Origin: a bacterium
GTDB taxonomy: Bacteria > Patescibacteriota > Minisyncoccia > Phycocordibacterales > CAIZLB01
DNA length: 64,000 bases
Direction: 5' to 3'
NCBI GenBank assembly: GCA_027490575.1
Contig: JAIXXV010000032.1
Location: 13,211 to 77,210 of the forward strand
Shown: positions 34,656 through 46,817 of the stretch, one piece after another
Layout: each line of letters begins with the position of its first letter
Numbering within the stretch: position 1 is the stretch's first letter
Program-made: the position numbers and the translations under genes
Notes under the pieces: generated by a model
The model's database searches: none
Told to the model about the DNA's origin: nothing
Seen by the model: only the letters and a program-made list of their open reading frames with translations

Positions 34656-35348
34656 CTACACCTCCCATCCCTTCAACTGTATAGCCTTCTGCGCCGCATC
34701 TTGTTCAGCCTCTTGTTTAGATTTACCCTCACCTGTTGTCACTAAGTCATCTTTCAAGTAAACACCAACTGTAAAAACTTTGTTGTGGTCTGGACCGATT
34801 TCTTTGATGATTTTATAAGATGGTGTTATAGCTGTTTTTTCTTGAGCTAATTCTTGGAAAAAACTTTTTGAGTCTATGAACTTTCTCTCAGCAATCATAT
34901 CGTCTGTAAGATCAAATAGCTGGCTGGCAACGAAGTCACGAGCTTTGTCATAACCACTGTCTATATATATGGCACCAATGATAGCCTCGAAAGCATTTGC
35001 AAGTATAAACTGCCTAGCGCGTCCCGTATCTTTTGCCTCACCTTTTGAAAGCATCATGAAAGAGTTCACGCCAAGCTTTTCAGCTGCAGTTGCCAATGTA
35101 TTTGAGTTAACCAGAGCCGATCTGTACGCAGTCAAATCACCTTCTGGCTTATCAGGGTACTTGTTGTATAGATAATCAGTGATGACGAGTTCGAGTACAG
35201 CATCACCCAAAAACTCCAGACGCTCATTGTGCTCCAGCTTTGTGTTTTTATTTTCGTTTAGATATGAACGATGGATAAATGCTTGCCTAAGCAAGTCTTT
35301 ATTGTTGAATTCTATAGCTATACTTTTTTCGAATATATTGAAATCCAT
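34656..35348 (-). CDS. rnc: Ribonuclease III
   Basis: RNase III signature ERLEFLGDAVLELVITDYLY and a C-terminal dsRBD. Confidence 0.9.
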   Translation of the reverse strand: MDFNIFEKSIAIEFNNKDLLRQAFIHRSYLNENKNTKLEHNERLEFLGDAVLELVITDYLYNKYPDKPEGDLTAYRSALVNSNTLATAAEKLGVNSFMMLSKGEAKDTGRARQFILANAFEAIIGAIYIDSGYDKARDFVASQLFDLTDDMIAERKFIDSKSFFQELAQEKTAITPSYKIIKEIGPDHNKVFTVGVYLKDDLVTTGEGKSKQEAEQDAAQKAIQLKGWEV

Positions 35349-35438: not shown

Positions 35439-36362
35439 TTAAGCTACCACGTTCTGTTTTTTAAGCAATATCTGTACCGCCTTCGTAACTATTGGCAAAA
35501 TGTCATTATAAAAATTGAGCGTTAGTAGATCTTTTGCATTAAACCACCTTGCATCTGTTAGTCCTCCACTGGTTCCAAGTGTAAGCGGTATAAAGTCGGA
35601 CTTTGCCAGGTAGTAACAAACTTGCTTTCGAATCTTGCCATCTTCTGGATGAGATGCAATGTACTCATTGTTAGCCAACTCTTCCTCTATCTCAATATCT
35701 ATACCCATCTCCTCCTTAATCTCACGCATGATGCCATCTTTCATATCTTCGTCACCTTCTAATTTACCTTTTGATAGAGTCCAGTGCCCAAAAACATCAT
35801 GAACTAGAGCGAACTGCATCTCACCATCGTGCATGGCATATACCACAGCACCTCCTAGTTTTTGTATTGGCATTTCTTCATAAGGAACTTCCTTTTTCTC
35901 CTTTTTTTGCTTTTTTGTAGAAACCTCCTCCTTTCCTGGCTCGCCCATCTCTTTGTAGACAGCACCGAGTACTCCGTTTACGAACTTGCCGGATGTTTCC
36001 CCTCCGAAAGACTTCGCCAGCTCAATAGCCTCGTTGATGGCCACTTTAGCTGGTACCTCCTTCCTATCGCCAAAAATTAGCTCAAAAAGGCCTATTCTGA
36101 GCACATTTCGATCAACTATCGCAATCTTGGGTATTGGCCACTCAGGAGCTGCTTTTTCAATGATTAGGTCTATTTCAGGGTTCTTTTTAACCACACCATC
36201 TACAATGTTTTTAATAAACGAAAAATCGCCCATACCAGGAGCGAATTCTTCAACATTTCTTTGAACAATTTCACCAACAACAGCAGAGTCTGAAATACCT
36301 CGAAAGTCTCTTTCGAAAAGTGATTGTAGTGCTATTGATCGTGAAAGGTGCCTATTTGCCAT
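35439..36362 (-). CDS. nusB: NusB (transcription antitermination) and NUDIX hydrolase fusion protein
   Basis: N-terminal ~140 aa is NusB-like (SRSIALQSLFERDF...AINEAIELAK). C-terminal ~150 aa carries a Nudix box (GKLEGDEDMKDGIMREIKEEMG). Confidence 0.7.
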   Translation of the reverse strand: MANRHLSRSIALQSLFERDFRGISDSAVVGEIVQRNVEEFAPGMGDFSFIKNIVDGVVKKNPEIDLIIEKAAPEWPIPKIAIVDRNVLRIGLFELIFGDRKEVPAKVAINEAIELAKSFGGETSGKFVNGVLGAVYKEMGEPGKEEVSTKKQKKEKKEVPYEEMPIQKLGGAVVYAMHDGEMQFALVHDVFGHWTLSKGKLEGDEDMKDGIMREIKEEMGIDIEIEEELANNEYIASHPEDGKIRKQVCYYLAKSDFIPLTLGTSGGLTDARWFNAKDLLTLNFYNDILPIVTKAVQILLKKQNVVA

Positions 36363-36447
36363 ATCAAAGATATATTTTTGTAACCAACCGAATATACTTT
36401 TAGTATATATTAAGTCGTATTGTTTATCAACCGTCTATATCAACCGC

Positions 36448-36678
36448 TTACTTTGTCTTTGTAGTCTTTTTAGCTTTACTTGTGACTTCTGCTTTGTCAG
36501 CTTTAGCTTGAATACCTAGAATATCTTTCCCTTTGTAAAAACCACAATGAGAACATGCGAGGTGTTTCTTCTTCGGCTGACCACATTTTTCACATAGGAT
36601 AAAGCCTACTCCAGAAAGGGCGTGGTGACTTCTTCGGTTCCGAGTGTGACCTCGGGTATGTCGCATTTGATTTACCAT
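36448..36678 (-). CDS. rpmF: 50S ribosomal protein L32
   Basis: RNRRSHHALS...CEKCGQPKKKHLACSHCGFYKG matches bL32 (RR.H.AL....C..CGe.k..HrvC..CGyY.G). Confidence 0.75.
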   Translation of the reverse strand: MVNQMRHTRGHTRNRRSHHALSGVGFILCEKCGQPKKKHLACSHCGFYKGKDILGIQAKADKAEVTSKAKKTTKTK

Positions 36679-36784
36679 AGATGACTATTATACTGATTTT
36701 AAGAAGGTTTGCAACAGGGCCAATGCGCTTGGTATTACGCGCGCATTTCCACGAGTTTTTCAGCGTACTTAGGAGTATTTGCAT

Positions 36785-36817
36785 AAAAAAAGGCTCTCCG
36801 GTACTGGACCGGGAGCC
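36785..36817 (-). terminator. Intrinsic terminator (minus strand) ending the GC-rich unit
   Basis: Minus-strand GGCTCCCGGTCCAGTACCGGAGAGCC followed by TTTTTTTATGC. Confidence 0.55.
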
Positions 36818-36898
36818 TAGGGGTTGATTAGGGCGAAATTCAATCATTATTTGTGAGACTTGGCTCAATGATTGGTTTCTATGTTCTTAGAAAAACTA

Positions 36899-37051
36899 TC
36901 AGCTTGCTCGGCCAGGCCTGCGACGAATGTGCCCGCCTGGGTTATCACGTTCGTCCAGGTAGTGAACCACCCTGTCGTGCTCGTTTCTTGGTGTACGCGG
37001 CCGCTTGTGGCCGTTTCTTGGATTCCGCTTTAACTGACGTCCTTGTGCCAT
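36899..37051 (-). other. GC-rich (~57%) unit encoding a 50-aa extremely Arg/Lys-rich ORF (MAQGRQLKRNPRNGHKRPRTPRNEH...) with an SD-like AAGGAAA, or alternatively a structured ncRNA
   Basis: Compositional outlier between rnhB and rpmF. An ATG at 37049-37051 is preceded by AAGGAAAtcgt. The terminator lies at 36785-36817. No confident match to a known ribosomal protein or RNA family. Confidence 0.3.
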
Positions 37052-37114
37052 ACGATTTCCTTTTTTTTCGATTTTATGTGTGACCATTGTCGACTCCTGC
37101 TACCAAGCAGAAAT

Positions 37115-37888
37115 TTAGATGGATTTACGTATATTACGACAATAACTCTCTCTATGCAAGTCAGATAATCCATGTTGTGATATAAGGCGCCGGTGAGACT
37201 CCGTACCGTACCCTTTGTGCTTTTCAAAGCCATATTTTCCGTATTCTGGATTATTCGCACATTTGGCCATATTTAGATCCCTTTTCACCTTTGCATAGAT
37301 AGAAGCAAATGATATGACCATCTCTTTTTCATCACCTTTTGTAAATGTTTCCTGGTTTTCGAAATCCGCCGGAGCTTTCAGTCCACCGTCGAGTAAAATG
37401 CAATATTCAGATTCAGTTGATCCAGTATCTCTCATGTGTTTTTGAAGACCGTCACCGATGCAACTTTTTATACACATACTTATACCTTGGTTATCAATTT
37501 GCCTAGCTGTTTTTGATAGGTAAATGAAACTTGCAGAGGAGCCTAGCTCTGCGTCCTTAAAAAATCTTGACCAAGATTCCCTCAGCGCTGATGAAAGTTT
37601 TTTTGAATCTTTTTCATACACATATGAGAGTTTATGCTTTTTAAGATTCTCTTTGTTTTTCTTTAAAAATTCTTTATATGAATTTGAGACATTCTTCACA
37701 AAGGGCATGAAGCAGATACCTACACCTACTGGACCTGCCAGAGGCCCTCTTCCTACCTCATCTATACCTACGAGCCACTTTGGTTTATGACTTTTCAGTG
37801 TGTTTTTTGGTGTACTTTTTCTCGCCCGTATTTGCACAGGTTTTTGCGCAGGTCTTTTCACGATCATTTGTTTAGCCATTAGTGTCAT
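37115..37888 (-). CDS. rnhB: Ribonuclease HII with a basic N-terminal extension
   Basis: LVGIDEVGRGPLAGPV matches the RNase HII catalytic motif. The first ~45 residues are Lys/Arg-rich. Confidence 0.8.
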   Translation of the reverse strand: MTLMAKQMIVKRPAQKPVQIRARKSTPKNTLKSHKPKWLVGIDEVGRGPLAGPVGVGICFMPFVKNVSNSYKEFLKKNKENLKKHKLSYVYEKDSKKLSSALRESWSRFFKDAELGSSASFIYLSKTARQIDNQGISMCIKSCIGDGLQKHMRDTGSTESEYCILLDGGLKAPADFENQETFTKGDEKEMVISFASIYAKVKRDLNMAKCANNPEYGKYGFEKHKGYGTESHRRLISQHGLSDLHRESYCRNIRKSI

Positions 37889-44817: not shown

Positions 44818-46161
44818 TTAACCGATAATCCCCTTTTTCAACATGTTTTGTCTTTTGAATTCAGCAATTCTATTGTCGATACTTGGTTTGTTGTATTTGT
44901 AGAATGCATAACCAGCGATCGAACTCCACAGTATCATTGCCAATGTTATAACTATCATCTTTGGACCAAAGTCTATACCTGTTGCAGGTACTTGGTTTAG
45001 GAATACTCCAGATACAGGTACACCAGTTACAGGTGTTTGATCTCTGATAACTGTTACGTTAGAAGCTACAGTGTTTGCAAAGATGGTTGTAGCACAAGTA
45101 GCGCTTACACTTTGACCATTTACAAATGCAGTAACACTCGCTGTCTTGTATCCAGGTATGTTGTAAGATCTAGTTAACTGAGCAGAATTTCCGAAAAGTC
45201 CATCAGTTCCTGACCAGTTGTATGAAGTTGCACCCCAGATATTTCCATTTACATACATAGTCCATGTAACGTTTTGGTTTATGAATGCAGTTGCAGGTGT
45301 AGCTACACAGTAAGCTCCGATAGGATTTACAGGTGGTACATAAGTGTCTTGTATAAGAACATTACATGATCTAGTGATTGATTGATTACCAGATGTGATA
45401 GTTACATAAGCTGTCTTGTATCCAAGTGATGCAAATCTTCCCGTAAATGATTGACCTGATGCACTTATACCATCACTTCCTGACCATACGTATGTGTAGT
45501 TTCCAGAACCTCCAGAAGCAGTTGCCATGAAAGTTAGGTTTTGATTAACAAATGCAGTTGAAGGACTAATGATACAGTTACCATTTAGAGTAGGTTCGGA
45601 AGGAGTGTTTGTATTTGAACCACCGCCACCTAGTACAACTAGACTGATGTTGTTGTTGTTTACAGGGTTAAATGTGTTTGAGTTGTTGTTTGTTGCACTA
45701 GCTGTACTGTTGTTTGTGTTAGTGTTTGTATTTCTGTTGGTATTTGTGTTTGTATTAGTATTTGAAGTATATACATACGAAAGCTGAGGGGCAGGTGTAA
45801 ATCCAAAACCTCCTCCACCACCTACATTGTTGTAGACATATCTTTGAGCTGGGGCCGCAACGAATCCTCCACCTACACGGTTTTGAACAGGTTGTACGTA
45901 TCTTTGCGTAGGGGCTGAAAATACAGGGTTTGAATATGTTGTATTCAATCTATATCCTGAAGAAGGACTTGAGTATACAGGGTTAGAGTAAGTTGTATTC
46001 AATCTATACCCAGAACCCGTTGTTCCAACACCTGACAAGCCAGAGCTTGTTTTAGATGCAAAAGTAACTCCTGGAAACAGCGTCACAGAAGAGACCAAAA
46101 TGGCTAGAAATATGAATTTCCCCGCTTTTTGTAGACTTTTTATATTTGTAATTGTTTTCAT
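44818..46161 (-). CDS. Secreted surface protein with an NT-repeat low-complexity linker, two Ig-like repeats and the C-terminal module PVSGVFLNQVPATG + TM + charged tail (candidate sortase substrate)
   Basis: Signal peptide (FIFLAILVSSVTLFPGVTFA), a TNTNTNTNRNTNTNTN linker, and two ~90-aa repeats (YTYVWSGSDGISASGQ... and SYNWSGTDGLFGNSAQ...). The C-terminal motif is shared with ORF 62616-63764. Confidence 0.6.
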   Translation of the reverse strand: MKTITNIKSLQKAGKFIFLAILVSSVTLFPGVTFASKTSSGLSGVGTTGSGYRLNTTYSNPVYSSPSSGYRLNTTYSNPVFSAPTQRYVQPVQNRVGGGFVAAPAQRYVYNNVGGGGGFGFTPAPQLSYVYTSNTNTNTNTNRNTNTNTNNSTASATNNNSNTFNPVNNNNISLVVLGGGGSNTNTPSEPTLNGNCIISPSTAFVNQNLTFMATASGGSGNYTYVWSGSDGISASGQSFTGRFASLGYKTAYVTITSGNQSITRSCNVLIQDTYVPPVNPIGAYCVATPATAFINQNVTWTMYVNGNIWGATSYNWSGTDGLFGNSAQLTRSYNIPGYKTASVTAFVNGQSVSATCATTIFANTVASNVTVIRDQTPVTGVPVSGVFLNQVPATGIDFGPKMIVITLAMILWSSIAGYAFYKYNKPSIDNRIAEFKRQNMLKKGIIG

Positions 46162-46250: not shown

Positions 46251-46817
46251 TCACCTTCGTGCATCGGGAGGTGGTTGGTAGAGCGAACCAACCGTCCTGC
46301 CTGCCTGTGGAATCATCTGCGGAGGTCCATTTTGACCCTGAAGGTCACCGGGTGCGTAGATCATGCCAGTGGCATGATCCATGAACCATGGTTTGGAATC
46401 GTCCAGTGTCACCTTACTTTCGCGAGGAGCTCCGTGGGTCCTTTGGAACTCACGGAGTTGCTCGTCGTTGAAGTGATGGACGGTGCCGTCGTCCATAGTG
46501 ACGGTGTGTGTACGCGTAGCATAGCCGAGCAGACGTCTACCGTCTGGCATAGCCTGGCCGACATGATTGTCGGCTGAGCCTTGGACCACTTGTCCATGGC
46601 CCCACTGGTGATTTGGAGGTTGACCTCCGTTTTCTACAGTTTGACCATTGAATGCCATGGGCGCTTGACCCATAACCACCCCAGGTTGTTGGACAACTTG
46701 GCGCCGCTGTGGAACAGCAATGCAAGAGACGAAGCTGATCATGGTGACCAGTGCCAATACTAACAATTTCACTTTTTTCATGATAATGAACGATTTTAGG
46801 GTTTGCTGAATGTACAC
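46251..46817 (-). CDS. Hypothetical secreted/lipoprotein (signal peptide plus Cys), Pro/Gly/Gln-rich, high-GC gene
   Basis: Begins MKKVKLLVLALVTMISFVSCIA. GC is ~55% against a ~38% background. Confidence 0.5.
   Translation of the reverse strand: MYIQQTLKSFIIMKKVKLLVLALVTMISFVSCIAVPQRRQVVQQPGVVMGQAPMAFNGQTVENGGQPPNHQWGHGQVVQGSADNHVGQAMPDGRRLLGYATRTHTVTMDDGTVHHFNDEQLREFQRTHGAPRESKVTLDDSKPWFMDHATGMIYAPGDLQGQNGPPQMIPQAGRTVGSLYQPPPDARR

What the first reader, a model, noticed from the sequence alone, without database searches (positions are those of the whole stretch)
36785..37090. GC-rich (~57%) segment between rnhB and rpmF with a tiny Arg/Lys-rich ORF or a structured RNA, with its own terminator
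A ~300-bp segment of strikingly high GC sits in a ~38% GC genome. It is on the same strand as its neighbours. A plausible SD (AAGGAAAtcgtATG) precedes a 50-codon ORF (MAQGRQLKRNPRNGHKRPRTPRNEHDRVVHYLDERDNPGGHIRRRPGRAS), of which about 24 residues are Arg, Lys or His. A clean rho-independent terminator follows at 36785-36817. The codon usage (CGG, CGT, GGC) is unlike the rest of the genome. High-GC islands in AT-rich reduced genomes are usually structured RNAs such as RNase P, SRP, tmRNA or 6S. I could not match consensus boxes of any of these by eye, nor a known small ribosomal protein. The content is either an unannotated small basic protein (a ribosome- or nucleic-acid-binding peptide) or a novel ncRNA.
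Basis: partly seen in the sequence, partly recalled or inferred. Interest (0 to 1): 0.55.

Follow-up and report, generated by a model that had tools for sequence, protein, structure and literature searches.

The report
Fast-evolving tiny basic protein gene
The GC-rich patch between rnhB and rpmF is most likely an unannotated gene for a 50-residue, strongly positively charged protein that one small group of Patescibacteria keeps in this position while its sequence changes very fast; it is not a known structured RNA.

Summary
The ORF, its Shine-Dalgarno site and the terminator are real. The high GC (58%) is confined to the 153-nt ORF at 36899-37051 (-).

Rfam finds nothing at any threshold, here or in relatives. 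The GC-rich part folds no better than shuffles (z -0.6).

Every relative that keeps a gap over 300 nt with one ORF between rnhB and rpmF has an SD + ATG ORF of 48-59 codons there. These ORFs are on the gene strand and carry net charge +8 to +16. That is 7 of 11 clade relatives and 0 of 77 more distant rnhB loci.

SD + ATG + ORF length beats shuffles (Fisher P about 6e-6). Window versus its nearest homologue shows frame-specific amino-acid similarity (P<0.0002) and codon-position conservation 2>1>3.

The sequence itself is hypervariable: 33-47% nt identity where flanks are 80-100%. Only one other lineage is detectably homologous. Codon usage is atypical (P=0.0004), and no family in Pfam, NCBIfam, PDB or 1.8 billion representatives matches.

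Best reading: a clade-restricted, mostly disordered polycationic microprotein constrained in composition rather than sequence, probably a nucleic-acid or ribosome binder. Function is inferred, not shown. Interest is modest.

The parts
37115..37888 (-). rnhB (RNase HII), the upstream gene. The small ORF is probably co-transcribed with it.
   Evidence: Pfam PF01351 E=7.6e-20 and NCBIfam ribonuclease HII models. No consensus promoter was found between its stop and the small ORF.
37093..37114 (-). Hairpin A, directly after the rnhB stop codon (9 bp, loop UUGG).
   Evidence: -10.0 kcal/mol, z -3.4, 0 of 200 shuffles fold as well. My reading of alignment A1 shows a compensatory C-G to U-A change in L100-L102. 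A hairpin sits at the same place in L103, L104, L106 and L109.
37052..37092 (-). Unstructured A/C-rich leader carrying the Shine-Dalgarno site AAGGAAA (37056-37062).
   Evidence: Sequence. The equivalent A/C-rich leader plus SD (AAGGAAAG, AAGGAG, GGAGAA, AAGGAGG, GGAGG) is present in L100-L104, L106 and L109.
36899..37051 (-). Small ORF of 50 codons plus stop. It encodes a polycationic peptide (12 R, 2 K, 4 H; net charge +9), is 58% GC, and is the core of the finding.
   Evidence: (the exact peptide was called as a gene on 3 Logan contigs).
36835..36879 (-). Hairpin B in the 3' UTR, conserved by covariation in the window and L100-L102 subclade.
   Evidence: RNAalifold and pair counting: helix 1 has 12 pairs, 6 of them changed on both sides, and 95.8% of cells are paired. 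Slid controls give 0 such pairs, and 0 of 500 shuffles reach the observed values. z -2.4 for the single sequence.
36819..36837 (-). Conserved C-rich stretch UUCGCCCUAAUCAACCCCU just upstream of the terminator. The AAACCCC(C/U)AGG part is kept even in L104 and L106.
   Evidence: Alignment A1 and the sequences of L104 and L106. Its role is unknown.
36784..36818 (-). Intrinsic terminator that ends the rnhB/small-ORF transcript.
   Evidence: Stem 36791-36818 plus U7 tract; -18.3 kcal/mol, z -3.85. It is nearly invariant in L100-L103, and an equivalent terminator is present in L104 and L106.
36687..36714 (-). rpmF promoter (TTGCAA, 16 nt, TATAAT), which marks the start of the next transcription unit.
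   Evidence: Promoter scan, 10 of 12 matches. It is 100% conserved in L100-L103.

Best explanation
The GC-rich segment is a real but unannotated protein-coding gene. It follows rnhB on the same strand. The order is: a short hairpin, an unstructured A/C-rich leader with a Shine-Dalgarno site, a 50-codon ORF, a conserved 3' UTR hairpin, and an intrinsic terminator.

The product is a very basic peptide (net charge +9), largely disordered, with one short predicted helix over the only conserved motif (RVVHYxD...NPG).

A small clade of Patescibacteria (Paceibacteria-like) keeps such a gene in the rnhB-rpmF slot. What it keeps is the gene's existence, start context, length (48-59 codons) and charge. 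The amino-acid sequence is not kept; it turns over at or above the neutral rate and is also exchanged by recombination.

Inferred mechanism (not shown): the peptide acts through bulk positive charge on a polyanionic partner. rRNA or the ribosome, or DNA, are the obvious candidates. This would resemble lineage-specific small ribosomal proteins or protamine-like proteins, in which composition rather than sequence is under selection.

About half of the GC excess follows from the Arg/Gly/Pro/His-rich composition. The other half, GC-rich synonymous codons, remains unexplained.
For: 1. Same-strand SD + ATG ORFs of 48, 48, 48, 50, 48, 49 and 59 codons lie 45-94 nt after the rnhB stop in L100, L101, L102, L103, L104, L106 and L109.
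2. SD + ATG + ORF at least as long as observed occurs in 1-3.5% of dinucleotide shuffles of each intergenic region. Fisher combined P is about 6e-6, and no such ORF exists on the opposite strand.
3. Among 88 rnhB loci, an SD-ATG ORF of 30-75 aa with net charge >= +7 within 500 nt downstream occurs in exactly the 7 closest relatives and in none of the other 81.
4. For window versus L100 (43% nt identity, ungapped), the BLOSUM score is +54 in the ORF frame and -21 to +14 in the other five frames. None of 5000 column shuffles reach it. Identity by codon position is 0.41/0.55/0.34, i.e. 2>1>3. Peptide similarity has z=6.6.
5. Net charge of +8 to +16 and about +10 GC points over the local background are seen in all lineages.
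6. Only five intergenic SD-ATG small-ORF entries exist in the whole 64-kb window, and two of them are the 50- and 62-aa versions of this ORF.
7. A gene caller called this exact 50-aa product on 3 contigs and the 59-aa one in L109.
8. The RNA alternative fails: no Rfam match, and z -0.6 for the GC-rich part.
Against: - ORF length alone is not significant (P 0.11-0.28 per lineage, Fisher 0.087), and the reverse strand has equally long ATG ORFs in five of the six lineages.
- Synonymous codon usage is unlike the genome (P=0.0004).
- pN/pS among L100-L102 is about 0.6-1 on only 5-19 changes, so purifying selection on the protein is not demonstrated.
- Apart from window versus L100-102, the positional equivalents show no sequence similarity beyond composition, so one gene family is an inference from position.
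- The slot is empty in L107, holds three unrelated genes in L105, and holds 110-119-aa ORFs in L110 and L111.
- No homologue was found in 5.8 billion clustered or 1.84 billion representative proteins.
- No Pfam, NCBIfam, PHROGs, PADLOC or PDB match.
- The AlphaFold single-sequence model has low confidence (pLDDT 65).
- There are no expression data of any kind.
Confidence: 0.62

Rival explanations
1. The ORF is incidental or only marginally functional. On this reading the rnhB-terminator spacer is a hypervariable, recombination-prone 3' UTR, and its GC-rich composition keeps reading frames open. Any peptide made has no selected function (a proto-gene or a translated spacer).
For: - ORF length alone is not above shuffles, and the antisense strand has equally long ORFs in five of the six lineages.
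- nt identity is 33-47% where flanks are 80-100%.
- A 385-nt patch was replaced between L101 and L103, whose flanks are 95-100% identical.
- pN/pS is about 0.6-1.
- Codon usage is atypical.
- The slot is empty or differently filled in L105, L107, L110 and L111.
- There are no homologues anywhere.
Against: - A neutrally drifting spacer in a 40% GC genome should decay toward AT and accumulate stops. Instead, SD + ATG + 48-59 codons + net charge >= +8 recur on the sense strand in all 7 close relatives and in 0 of 81 other rnhB loci.
- Similarity between window and L100 is frame-specific, with the 2>1>3 codon-position pattern.
Confidence: 0.22
2. It is a novel structured non-coding RNA of about 330 nt, running from the rnhB stop to the terminator, whose GC-rich core is needed for folding. 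On this reading the ORF is a by-product.
For: - The whole 336-nt stretch folds somewhat better than shuffles (z -2.4).
- Hairpin A, hairpin B and the terminator are real and conserved, and hairpin B has 6 compensatory pairs.
- GC3 is raised beyond what the peptide needs.
- The conserved RVVHY...NPG codons can also be drawn as an 11-bp hairpin.
Against: - No Rfam family matches at gathering score or at E<=10, in the window or in five relatives.
- The GC-rich 150 nt fold no better than shuffles on either strand (z -0.6 and -1.3).
- The consensus fold of the ORF part is weak (-21 kcal/mol over 226 columns) and has many broken pairs. The putative core hairpin has no pair changed on both sides.
- The primary sequence of this part is the least conserved in the locus, and frame-specific amino-acid conservation is present.
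Confidence: 0.08
3. It is a known small ribosomal protein (bL33, bL34, bL36, bS21, Sra/bS22-like) that has diverged beyond recognition in Patescibacteria.
For: Its size, its charge, its MAK/MAQ N-terminus and its position next to rpmF. By eye, QLKRNPRNGHKRPR resembles the bL34 N-terminal motif, and VV..NPxG..RRP resembles E. coli Sra. Both resemblances rest on sequences recalled from memory, so they are leads only.
Against: - No Pfam or NCBIfam hit at E<=10 for any of six lineage peptides.
- No PDB chain matches the profile of the family. For the single peptides the only matches at E<=10 are weak: a squalene-cyclase-type protein (E 0.75) and uS17 (E 0.4). The PDB holds all structurally known ribosomal proteins.
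- Known ribosomal proteins are slowly evolving, whereas this ORF is the fastest-evolving piece of the locus.
Confidence: 0.04

Closest known systems
Lineage-specific small basic ribosomal or ribosome-associated proteins (bTHX in Thermus, bS22 and bL37 in mycobacteria, Sra in enterobacteria); from my own knowledge and PMC5876184 (title only)
   Same: They are tens of residues long, very basic, largely disordered off the ribosome and taxonomically restricted. They were missed by annotation until found experimentally. Here the gene also sits next to a ribosomal protein gene.
   Different: No sequence match to any of them was found. This ORF evolves at about the neutral rate and is exchanged between strains. 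Ribosome association is untested.
Protamine-like or histone-like polycationic proteins, whose Arg/Lys content rather than sequence is conserved (my own knowledge)
   Same: Net charge and length are conserved across lineages, while the sequence is unalignable outside the closest relatives.
   Different: This is a bacterial, 50-residue protein. No DNA-binding evidence exists and there is no homology.
Structured housekeeping RNAs that form GC-rich islands in AT-rich genomes (RNase P RNA, SRP RNA, tmRNA, 6S RNA)
   Same: A local GC peak in a low-GC genome, on the gene strand, ending in a terminator.
   Different: No covariance-model match at any threshold. There is no excess folding energy in the GC-rich part, and the sequence shows coding signatures.

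Membership tests
Known RNA families (Rfam 15: RNase P, SRP, tmRNA, 6S, riboswitches, r-protein leaders and others) | Covariance-model score at or above the family's gathering score | tested here: not met
   The whole window at gathering score gives only two tRNAs elsewhere. For 36600-37250 at E<=10, the only match is a 12.8-bit suhB hit that is the terminator. Five relatives' loci at E<=5 give nothing in the equivalent region.
Structured non-coding RNA (generic) | Folding energy well below shuffles, and compensatory base-pair changes across relatives within the GC-rich segment | tested here: not met
   z -0.6 (minus strand) and -1.3 (plus strand) for 36902-37051. The consensus fold of the ORF region is weak, and its conserved core hairpin has no pair changed on both sides. 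The feature is met only for the flanking hairpin B.
Protein-coding gene | Conserved start with a ribosome-binding site and an open frame of conserved length on the sense strand across relatives | tested here: met
   Six lineages have SD + ATG + 48-59 codons. Fisher P is about 6e-6 against dinucleotide shuffles, with none on the antisense strand. The feature is present in 7 of 7 syntenic close relatives and 0 of 81 other rnhB loci.
Protein-coding gene | Frame-specific amino-acid conservation and a codon-position substitution pattern (2nd > 1st > 3rd) | tested here: met
   Window versus L100: score +54 in frame against -21 to +14 in the other five frames, 0 of 5000 column shuffles as high, and identity 0.41/0.55/0.34 by codon position. 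Only one independent comparison is possible.
Protein-coding gene | Purifying selection (dN/dS clearly below 1) and genome-typical codon usage | tested here: inconclusive
   pN/pS is 0.56-0.66 (L100 or L101 versus L102) and about 1 (L100 versus L101), on 5-19 changes. rnhB gives 0.2-0.39 for the same genomes. Codon usage is atypical, P=0.0004.
Small ribosomal proteins (bL32-bL36, bS21, bTHX, bS22, bL37, Sra) | Sequence match to the family HMM or to a solved ribosomal chain | tested here: not met
   Pfam and NCBIfam give 0 hits at E<=10 for six peptides. PDB sequence searches give no credible ribosomal hit; the only ribosomal chain listed is uS17 at E=0.4 for the L109 peptide.
Small ribosomal proteins | Physical presence in the ribosome | not testable with these tools
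   This needs ribosome purification with mass spectrometry, or cryo-EM, from a Paceibacteria culture or enrichment.
Intrinsic (rho-independent) terminator | G+C-rich stem-loop immediately followed by a U-tract on the transcribed strand | tested here: met
   11-bp bulged stem 36791-36818 plus U7 tract, -18.3 kcal/mol, z -3.85. It is conserved in relatives.
Diversity-generating retroelement target or template repeat | A second copy that differs mainly at adenines, and a nearby reverse transcriptase | tested here: not met
   No second copy exists in the 64-kb window by blastn (word size 7) or by an adenine-masked scan, where the best non-self match is 57%.
Type I toxins and leaderless bacteriocins (small cationic membrane-active peptides) | A hydrophobic or amphipathic membrane-active segment | tested here: not met
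   The sequence has only 2 L, 2 V, 1 I, 1 Y, 2 A and 1 M among 50 residues and, by inspection, no hydrophobic stretch. There are no PADLOC or PHROGs hits.

The most novel reading that the evidence does not exclude
The rnhB-rpmF slot of this Paceibacteria clade encodes a new class of ribosome- or nucleoid-associated polycationic microprotein. It would evolve under composition-only constraint, as protamines do, and be swapped between strains by recombination. It might compensate for ribosomal proteins or rRNA segments that Patescibacteria have lost. The extra GC at synonymous sites and the covarying 3' UTR hairpin would then reflect a second, mRNA-level layer of selection.
Probability: 0.2. Interest if true: 0.55.

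Novelty: new member of a known kind. Interest (0 to 1): 0.3.

Why it matters
If translated, this is one more small protein that standard annotation misses. Gene callers skipped it in most of the relatives examined here. It also shows that a GC spike in an AT-rich reduced genome need not be a structured RNA.

A gene kept by position, length and charge, while its sequence is free to change, is a useful test case. It bears on how microproteins are maintained and on what the minimal translation or nucleoid apparatus of Patescibacteria contains.

The effect is limited to a narrow clade and no function is shown, so the wider importance is modest.

Tried and rejected
- **Rfam.** Whole window at gathering score, the local region at E<=10, and five relatives' loci at E<=5 gave nothing relevant.
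- **Protein family libraries.** Pfam, NCBIfam, PHROGs and PADLOC on the window peptide and five positional equivalents gave 0 hits.
- **PDB sequence searches.** A single sequence, a 4-sequence profile and four other lineages gave nothing credible.
- **Large protein collections.** The 5.8-billion-cluster word-index search and the 1.84-billion-representative phmmer search found only the peptide itself, plus one low-complexity 335-aa protein at E=1e-4.
- **Searches of fetched loci.** tblastn, nhmmer and an HMM of the family against all fetched loci found nothing beyond L100-L102.
- **Mobile origin.** Viral contigs, phage records and plasmid records gave no match, so a mobile origin is rejected.
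- **DGR idea for the hypervariability.** No adenine-biased repeat was found.
- **ORF length alone as evidence for coding.** This is not significant and was abandoned as an argument.
- **Resemblance to bL34, bL33 or Sra.** This was noticed by eye from memory and got no support from any HMM.
- **AlphaFold single-sequence model.** Low confidence (pLDDT 65) with one helix at residues 24-36. It was not used for a fold search because matches would be meaningless.
- **A separate sigma-70 promoter for the small ORF.** None reached the scan threshold. By eye, a weak TTGCAT-17-TAATAT lies inside the rnhB 3' end; this was not pursued.
- **Conserved 5'-3' UTR pairing enclosing the ORF.** It is seen in L103 and L100 folds but is not consistent across lineages.

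Full report
**1. What is in the sequence**

All genes around the finding lie on the minus strand.
- rnhB is at 37115-37888 (Pfam RNase_HII, E=7.6e-20).
- rpmF is at 36448-36678 (Ribosomal_L32p).
- A NusB-NUDIX fusion is at 35439-36362, and rnc is at 34656-35348.

The 436-nt gap between rnhB and rpmF contains, in transcription order:
- hairpin A at 37093-37114, right after the rnhB stop (-10 kcal/mol, z -3.4);
- an A/C-rich leader with AAGGAAA at 37056-37062;
- an ATG at 37051-37049 that opens a 50-codon ORF ending at 36899;
- hairpin B at 36835-36879;
- a C-rich conserved stretch;
- an intrinsic terminator (stem 36791-36818, U7 tract at 36784-36790, -18.3 kcal/mol, z -3.85);
- the rpmF promoter TTGCAA-16-TATAAT at 36714-36687.

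**2.

The window is 39.8% GC. So the GC island is the ORF and nothing else.

It is one of the two GC-richest 150-nt stretches in the window. The other lies inside a 188-aa Gln/Gly/Pro-rich ORF at 46251-46817.

The peptide has 12 Arg, 2 Lys and 4 His, which is 18 basic residues rather than about 24.

The codon-usage remark is right. The synonymous choices are improbable under the window's own usage (P=0.0004). The same peptide written in genome-typical codons would be 49.3 +/- 2.4% GC, against 58.7% observed. Amino-acid composition therefore explains about half of the GC excess, and GC-rich synonymous codons explain the rest.

**3. Is it a known or novel structured RNA?**

- Rfam 15 finds only two tRNAs in the window at gathering score.
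- At E<=10 on 36600-37250, the only match is a 12.8-bit hit that is simply the terminator.
- The equivalent regions of five relatives give nothing.
- The whole 336-nt unit folds modestly better than shuffles (z -2.4). That signal comes from the flanking hairpins. The 150 GC-rich nucleotides fold no better than shuffles on either strand (z -0.6 and -1.3).
- The consensus fold of the ORF part across the four alignable sequences is weak and has many broken pairs. The one hairpin over the conserved core has no pair changed on both sides.

The structured-RNA reading is therefore not supported for the GC-rich part.

**4. Relatives**

The organism is a Patescibacteria (Paceibacteria-like) bacterium. 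The best rnhB matches among GTDB species representatives and JGI metagenomes are only 42-43% identical. Closer relatives were reached through rnhB and rpmF homologues in the large protein collection and their contigs.

The rnhB-gap-rpmF arrangement is kept in L100-L104, L106, L107, L109, L110 and L111.

Positional equivalents of the ORF, each on the gene strand, preceded by an SD and starting 45-94 nt after the rnhB stop:

| Locus | rnhB identity | Peptide | Length |
|---|---|---|---|
| L100-L102 | 79-87% | MALKGKNTGHPRHHHEPRKGGRRPKRRVVHYTDKSGNPGKEKVEKSSG | 48 aa |
| L103 | 75% | MAKSFFSGKK... | 50 aa |
| L104 | 54% | MAQKSRTLPPK... | 48 aa |
| L106 | 54% | MAKPKKPSQPR... | 49 aa |
| L109 | 46% | MSKKGKRHSRK... 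| 59 aa |

Every one has net charge +8 to +16, and the sampled lineages are about 10 GC points above their local background.

Other relatives differ:
- L110 and L111 carry 119-aa and 110-aa ORFs in the slot.
- L105 has three inserted genes.
- L107 has only a 108-nt gap.

**5. Is the ORF more than chance?**

ORF length alone is not. An ATG ORF as long as the observed one appears in 11-28% of dinucleotide shuffles of each intergenic region (Fisher P=0.087), and the antisense strand carries equally long ORFs in five of the six lineages.

The combination of SD, ATG and length is significant. It occurs in 1-3.5% of shuffles per lineage, with Fisher P about 6e-6 over six lineages and none on the antisense strand. 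Window and L100 are not independent of each other, so the true value is somewhat weaker.

A natural control agrees. Among 88 fetched loci with an rnhB stop, an SD-ATG ORF of 30-75 aa with net charge >= +7 within 500 nt downstream occurs in exactly the seven close relatives and in none of the other 81. In the whole 64-kb window there are only five intergenic SD-ATG small-ORF entries, two of which are this ORF.

**6. Coding signature**

The window and L100 ORFs align without gaps over 132 nt at only 43% nt identity.
- The translated similarity is +54 (BLOSUM62) in the ORF frame, against -17, -17, +14, -21 and -16 in the other five frames.
- None of 5000 column shuffles reach +54.
- Identity by codon position is 0.41/0.55/0.34, the 2>1>3 order expected of coding sequence.
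- The peptides are significantly similar (z=6.6) and share RVVHYxD...NPG. The other lineages are not similar beyond composition.
- A single-sequence AlphaFold model is of low confidence (pLDDT 65). It shows one helix over residues 24-36, the conserved core, and nothing else.

**7. Mode of evolution**

- Between the window and L100 the flanking genes are 80-100% identical in DNA. The stretch from the rnhB stop to just before the terminator (about 37115-36855) is 33-47% identical. That is at or beyond the synonymous-site divergence of rnhB (pS 0.43).
- rpmF, its promoter and the terminator are almost identical in all five genomes (pS 0.02-0.10).
- L101 and L103 are 95-100% identical on both sides but differ over a 385-nt patch. 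The patch covers the last 100 nt of rnhB (62-65% identity) and the whole small-ORF unit (15-57% identity). This is an imported recombination patch.
- Within L100-L102, pN/pS of the small ORF is about 0.6-1 on 5-19 changes, against 0.26-0.36 for rnhB among the same three genomes. Purifying selection on the sequence is therefore not shown.

What is conserved is existence, start context, length and charge.

**8. RNA elements that are real**

Hairpin B has 12 pairs, 6 of them changed on both sides between the window and the L100 group, with 95.8% of cells paired. Slid controls give none, and 0 of 500 shuffles reach the observed values. This rests on two effective lineages.

Hairpin A is kept, with a compensatory change by my reading of alignment A1. 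A hairpin sits at the same place in all lineages.

These elements look like mRNA features (stability, processing, termination) of a small coding unit rather than parts of one large RNA.

**9. What it is not**

- No hit in Pfam, NCBIfam, PHROGs or PADLOC for six lineage peptides.
- No credible PDB chain by single sequence or by profile, so no sequence link to any structurally known ribosomal protein.
- No relative among 5.8 billion clusters or 1.84 billion representatives.
- No phage, plasmid or viral-contig match.
- No DGR-like repeat.
- The peptide is too hydrophilic for a type I toxin or a leaderless bacteriocin (composition).
- Two literature searches found nothing on such a gene in Patescibacteria.

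**10. Verdict**

The most likely reading (about 0.6) is an unannotated, clade-restricted gene for a polycationic, mostly disordered microprotein of about 50 residues. It is transcribed with or just after rnhB and closed by its own terminator.

That it binds a polyanion (ribosome or rRNA, or DNA) through charge is an inference from composition, from the conserved charge and length, and from the neighbourhood. It is not shown.

The main rival (about 0.2) is that the ORF is an incidental feature of a hypervariable, recombination-prone spacer. A novel ncRNA (under 0.1) and a disguised known ribosomal protein (about 0.04) are unlikely.

The excess GC at synonymous sites is unexplained under every reading. 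The finding is a sound catch of a probable missed small gene, of modest general interest.

Noticed in passing
window 36676-36714 (-); also L100-L104, L106, L107, L109 upstream of rpmF: rpmF appears to be leaderless. The -10 box TATAAT (36692-36687) is followed by only 8 nt and then the ATG (36678), with no Shine-Dalgarno site. The same arrangement of -10 box, then 8-10 nt, then ATGG is kept in all relatives, including those with 46-54% rnhB identity.
   Followed up: partly
window 36197-36800 versus L100-L103: The divergence is mosaic. The terminator, rpmF and the 5' part of nusB are 95-100% identical between genomes (rpmF pS 0.02-0.10), while their rnhB has pS 0.42-0.47. This points to a recent recombination sweep or to unusually strong constraint on this block.
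   Followed up: partly
window 35439-36362 (-): NusB is fused to a C-terminal NUDIX hydrolase domain (307 aa; PF01029 plus PF00293). The fusion is conserved in all close relatives.
   Followed up: no
window 46251-46817 (-): This is the other GC-richest spot of the window (56-59% GC). It is a 188-aa ORF rich in Gln, Gly and Pro with a hydrophobic N-terminus. It has no Rfam hit. It lies next to a 447-aa Asn/Thr/Gly-rich low-complexity ORF (44818-46161).
   Followed up: no
window 36819-36830 (-); L104 4032-4046; L106 3999-4012: The motif AAACCCC(C/U)AGG immediately 5' of the terminator stem is kept in lineages whose small ORFs are unalignable. Its role is unknown.
   Followed up: no
L105 3862-6199: In one relative the rnhB-rpmF slot holds three tandem genes of 204-271 aa with no Pfam hit. 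By eye, two of them look paralogous to each other. This suggests the slot is a general insertion or variation hotspot.
   Followed up: no
window 37087-37085 (-): An in-frame upstream ATG with an AGGAG site (inside the 3' arm of hairpin A) would give a 62-aa version of the peptide. The frame is also open upstream in L100-L102, but there it starts with GTG or TTG, so the 50-aa start is taken as the conserved one.
   Followed up: partly
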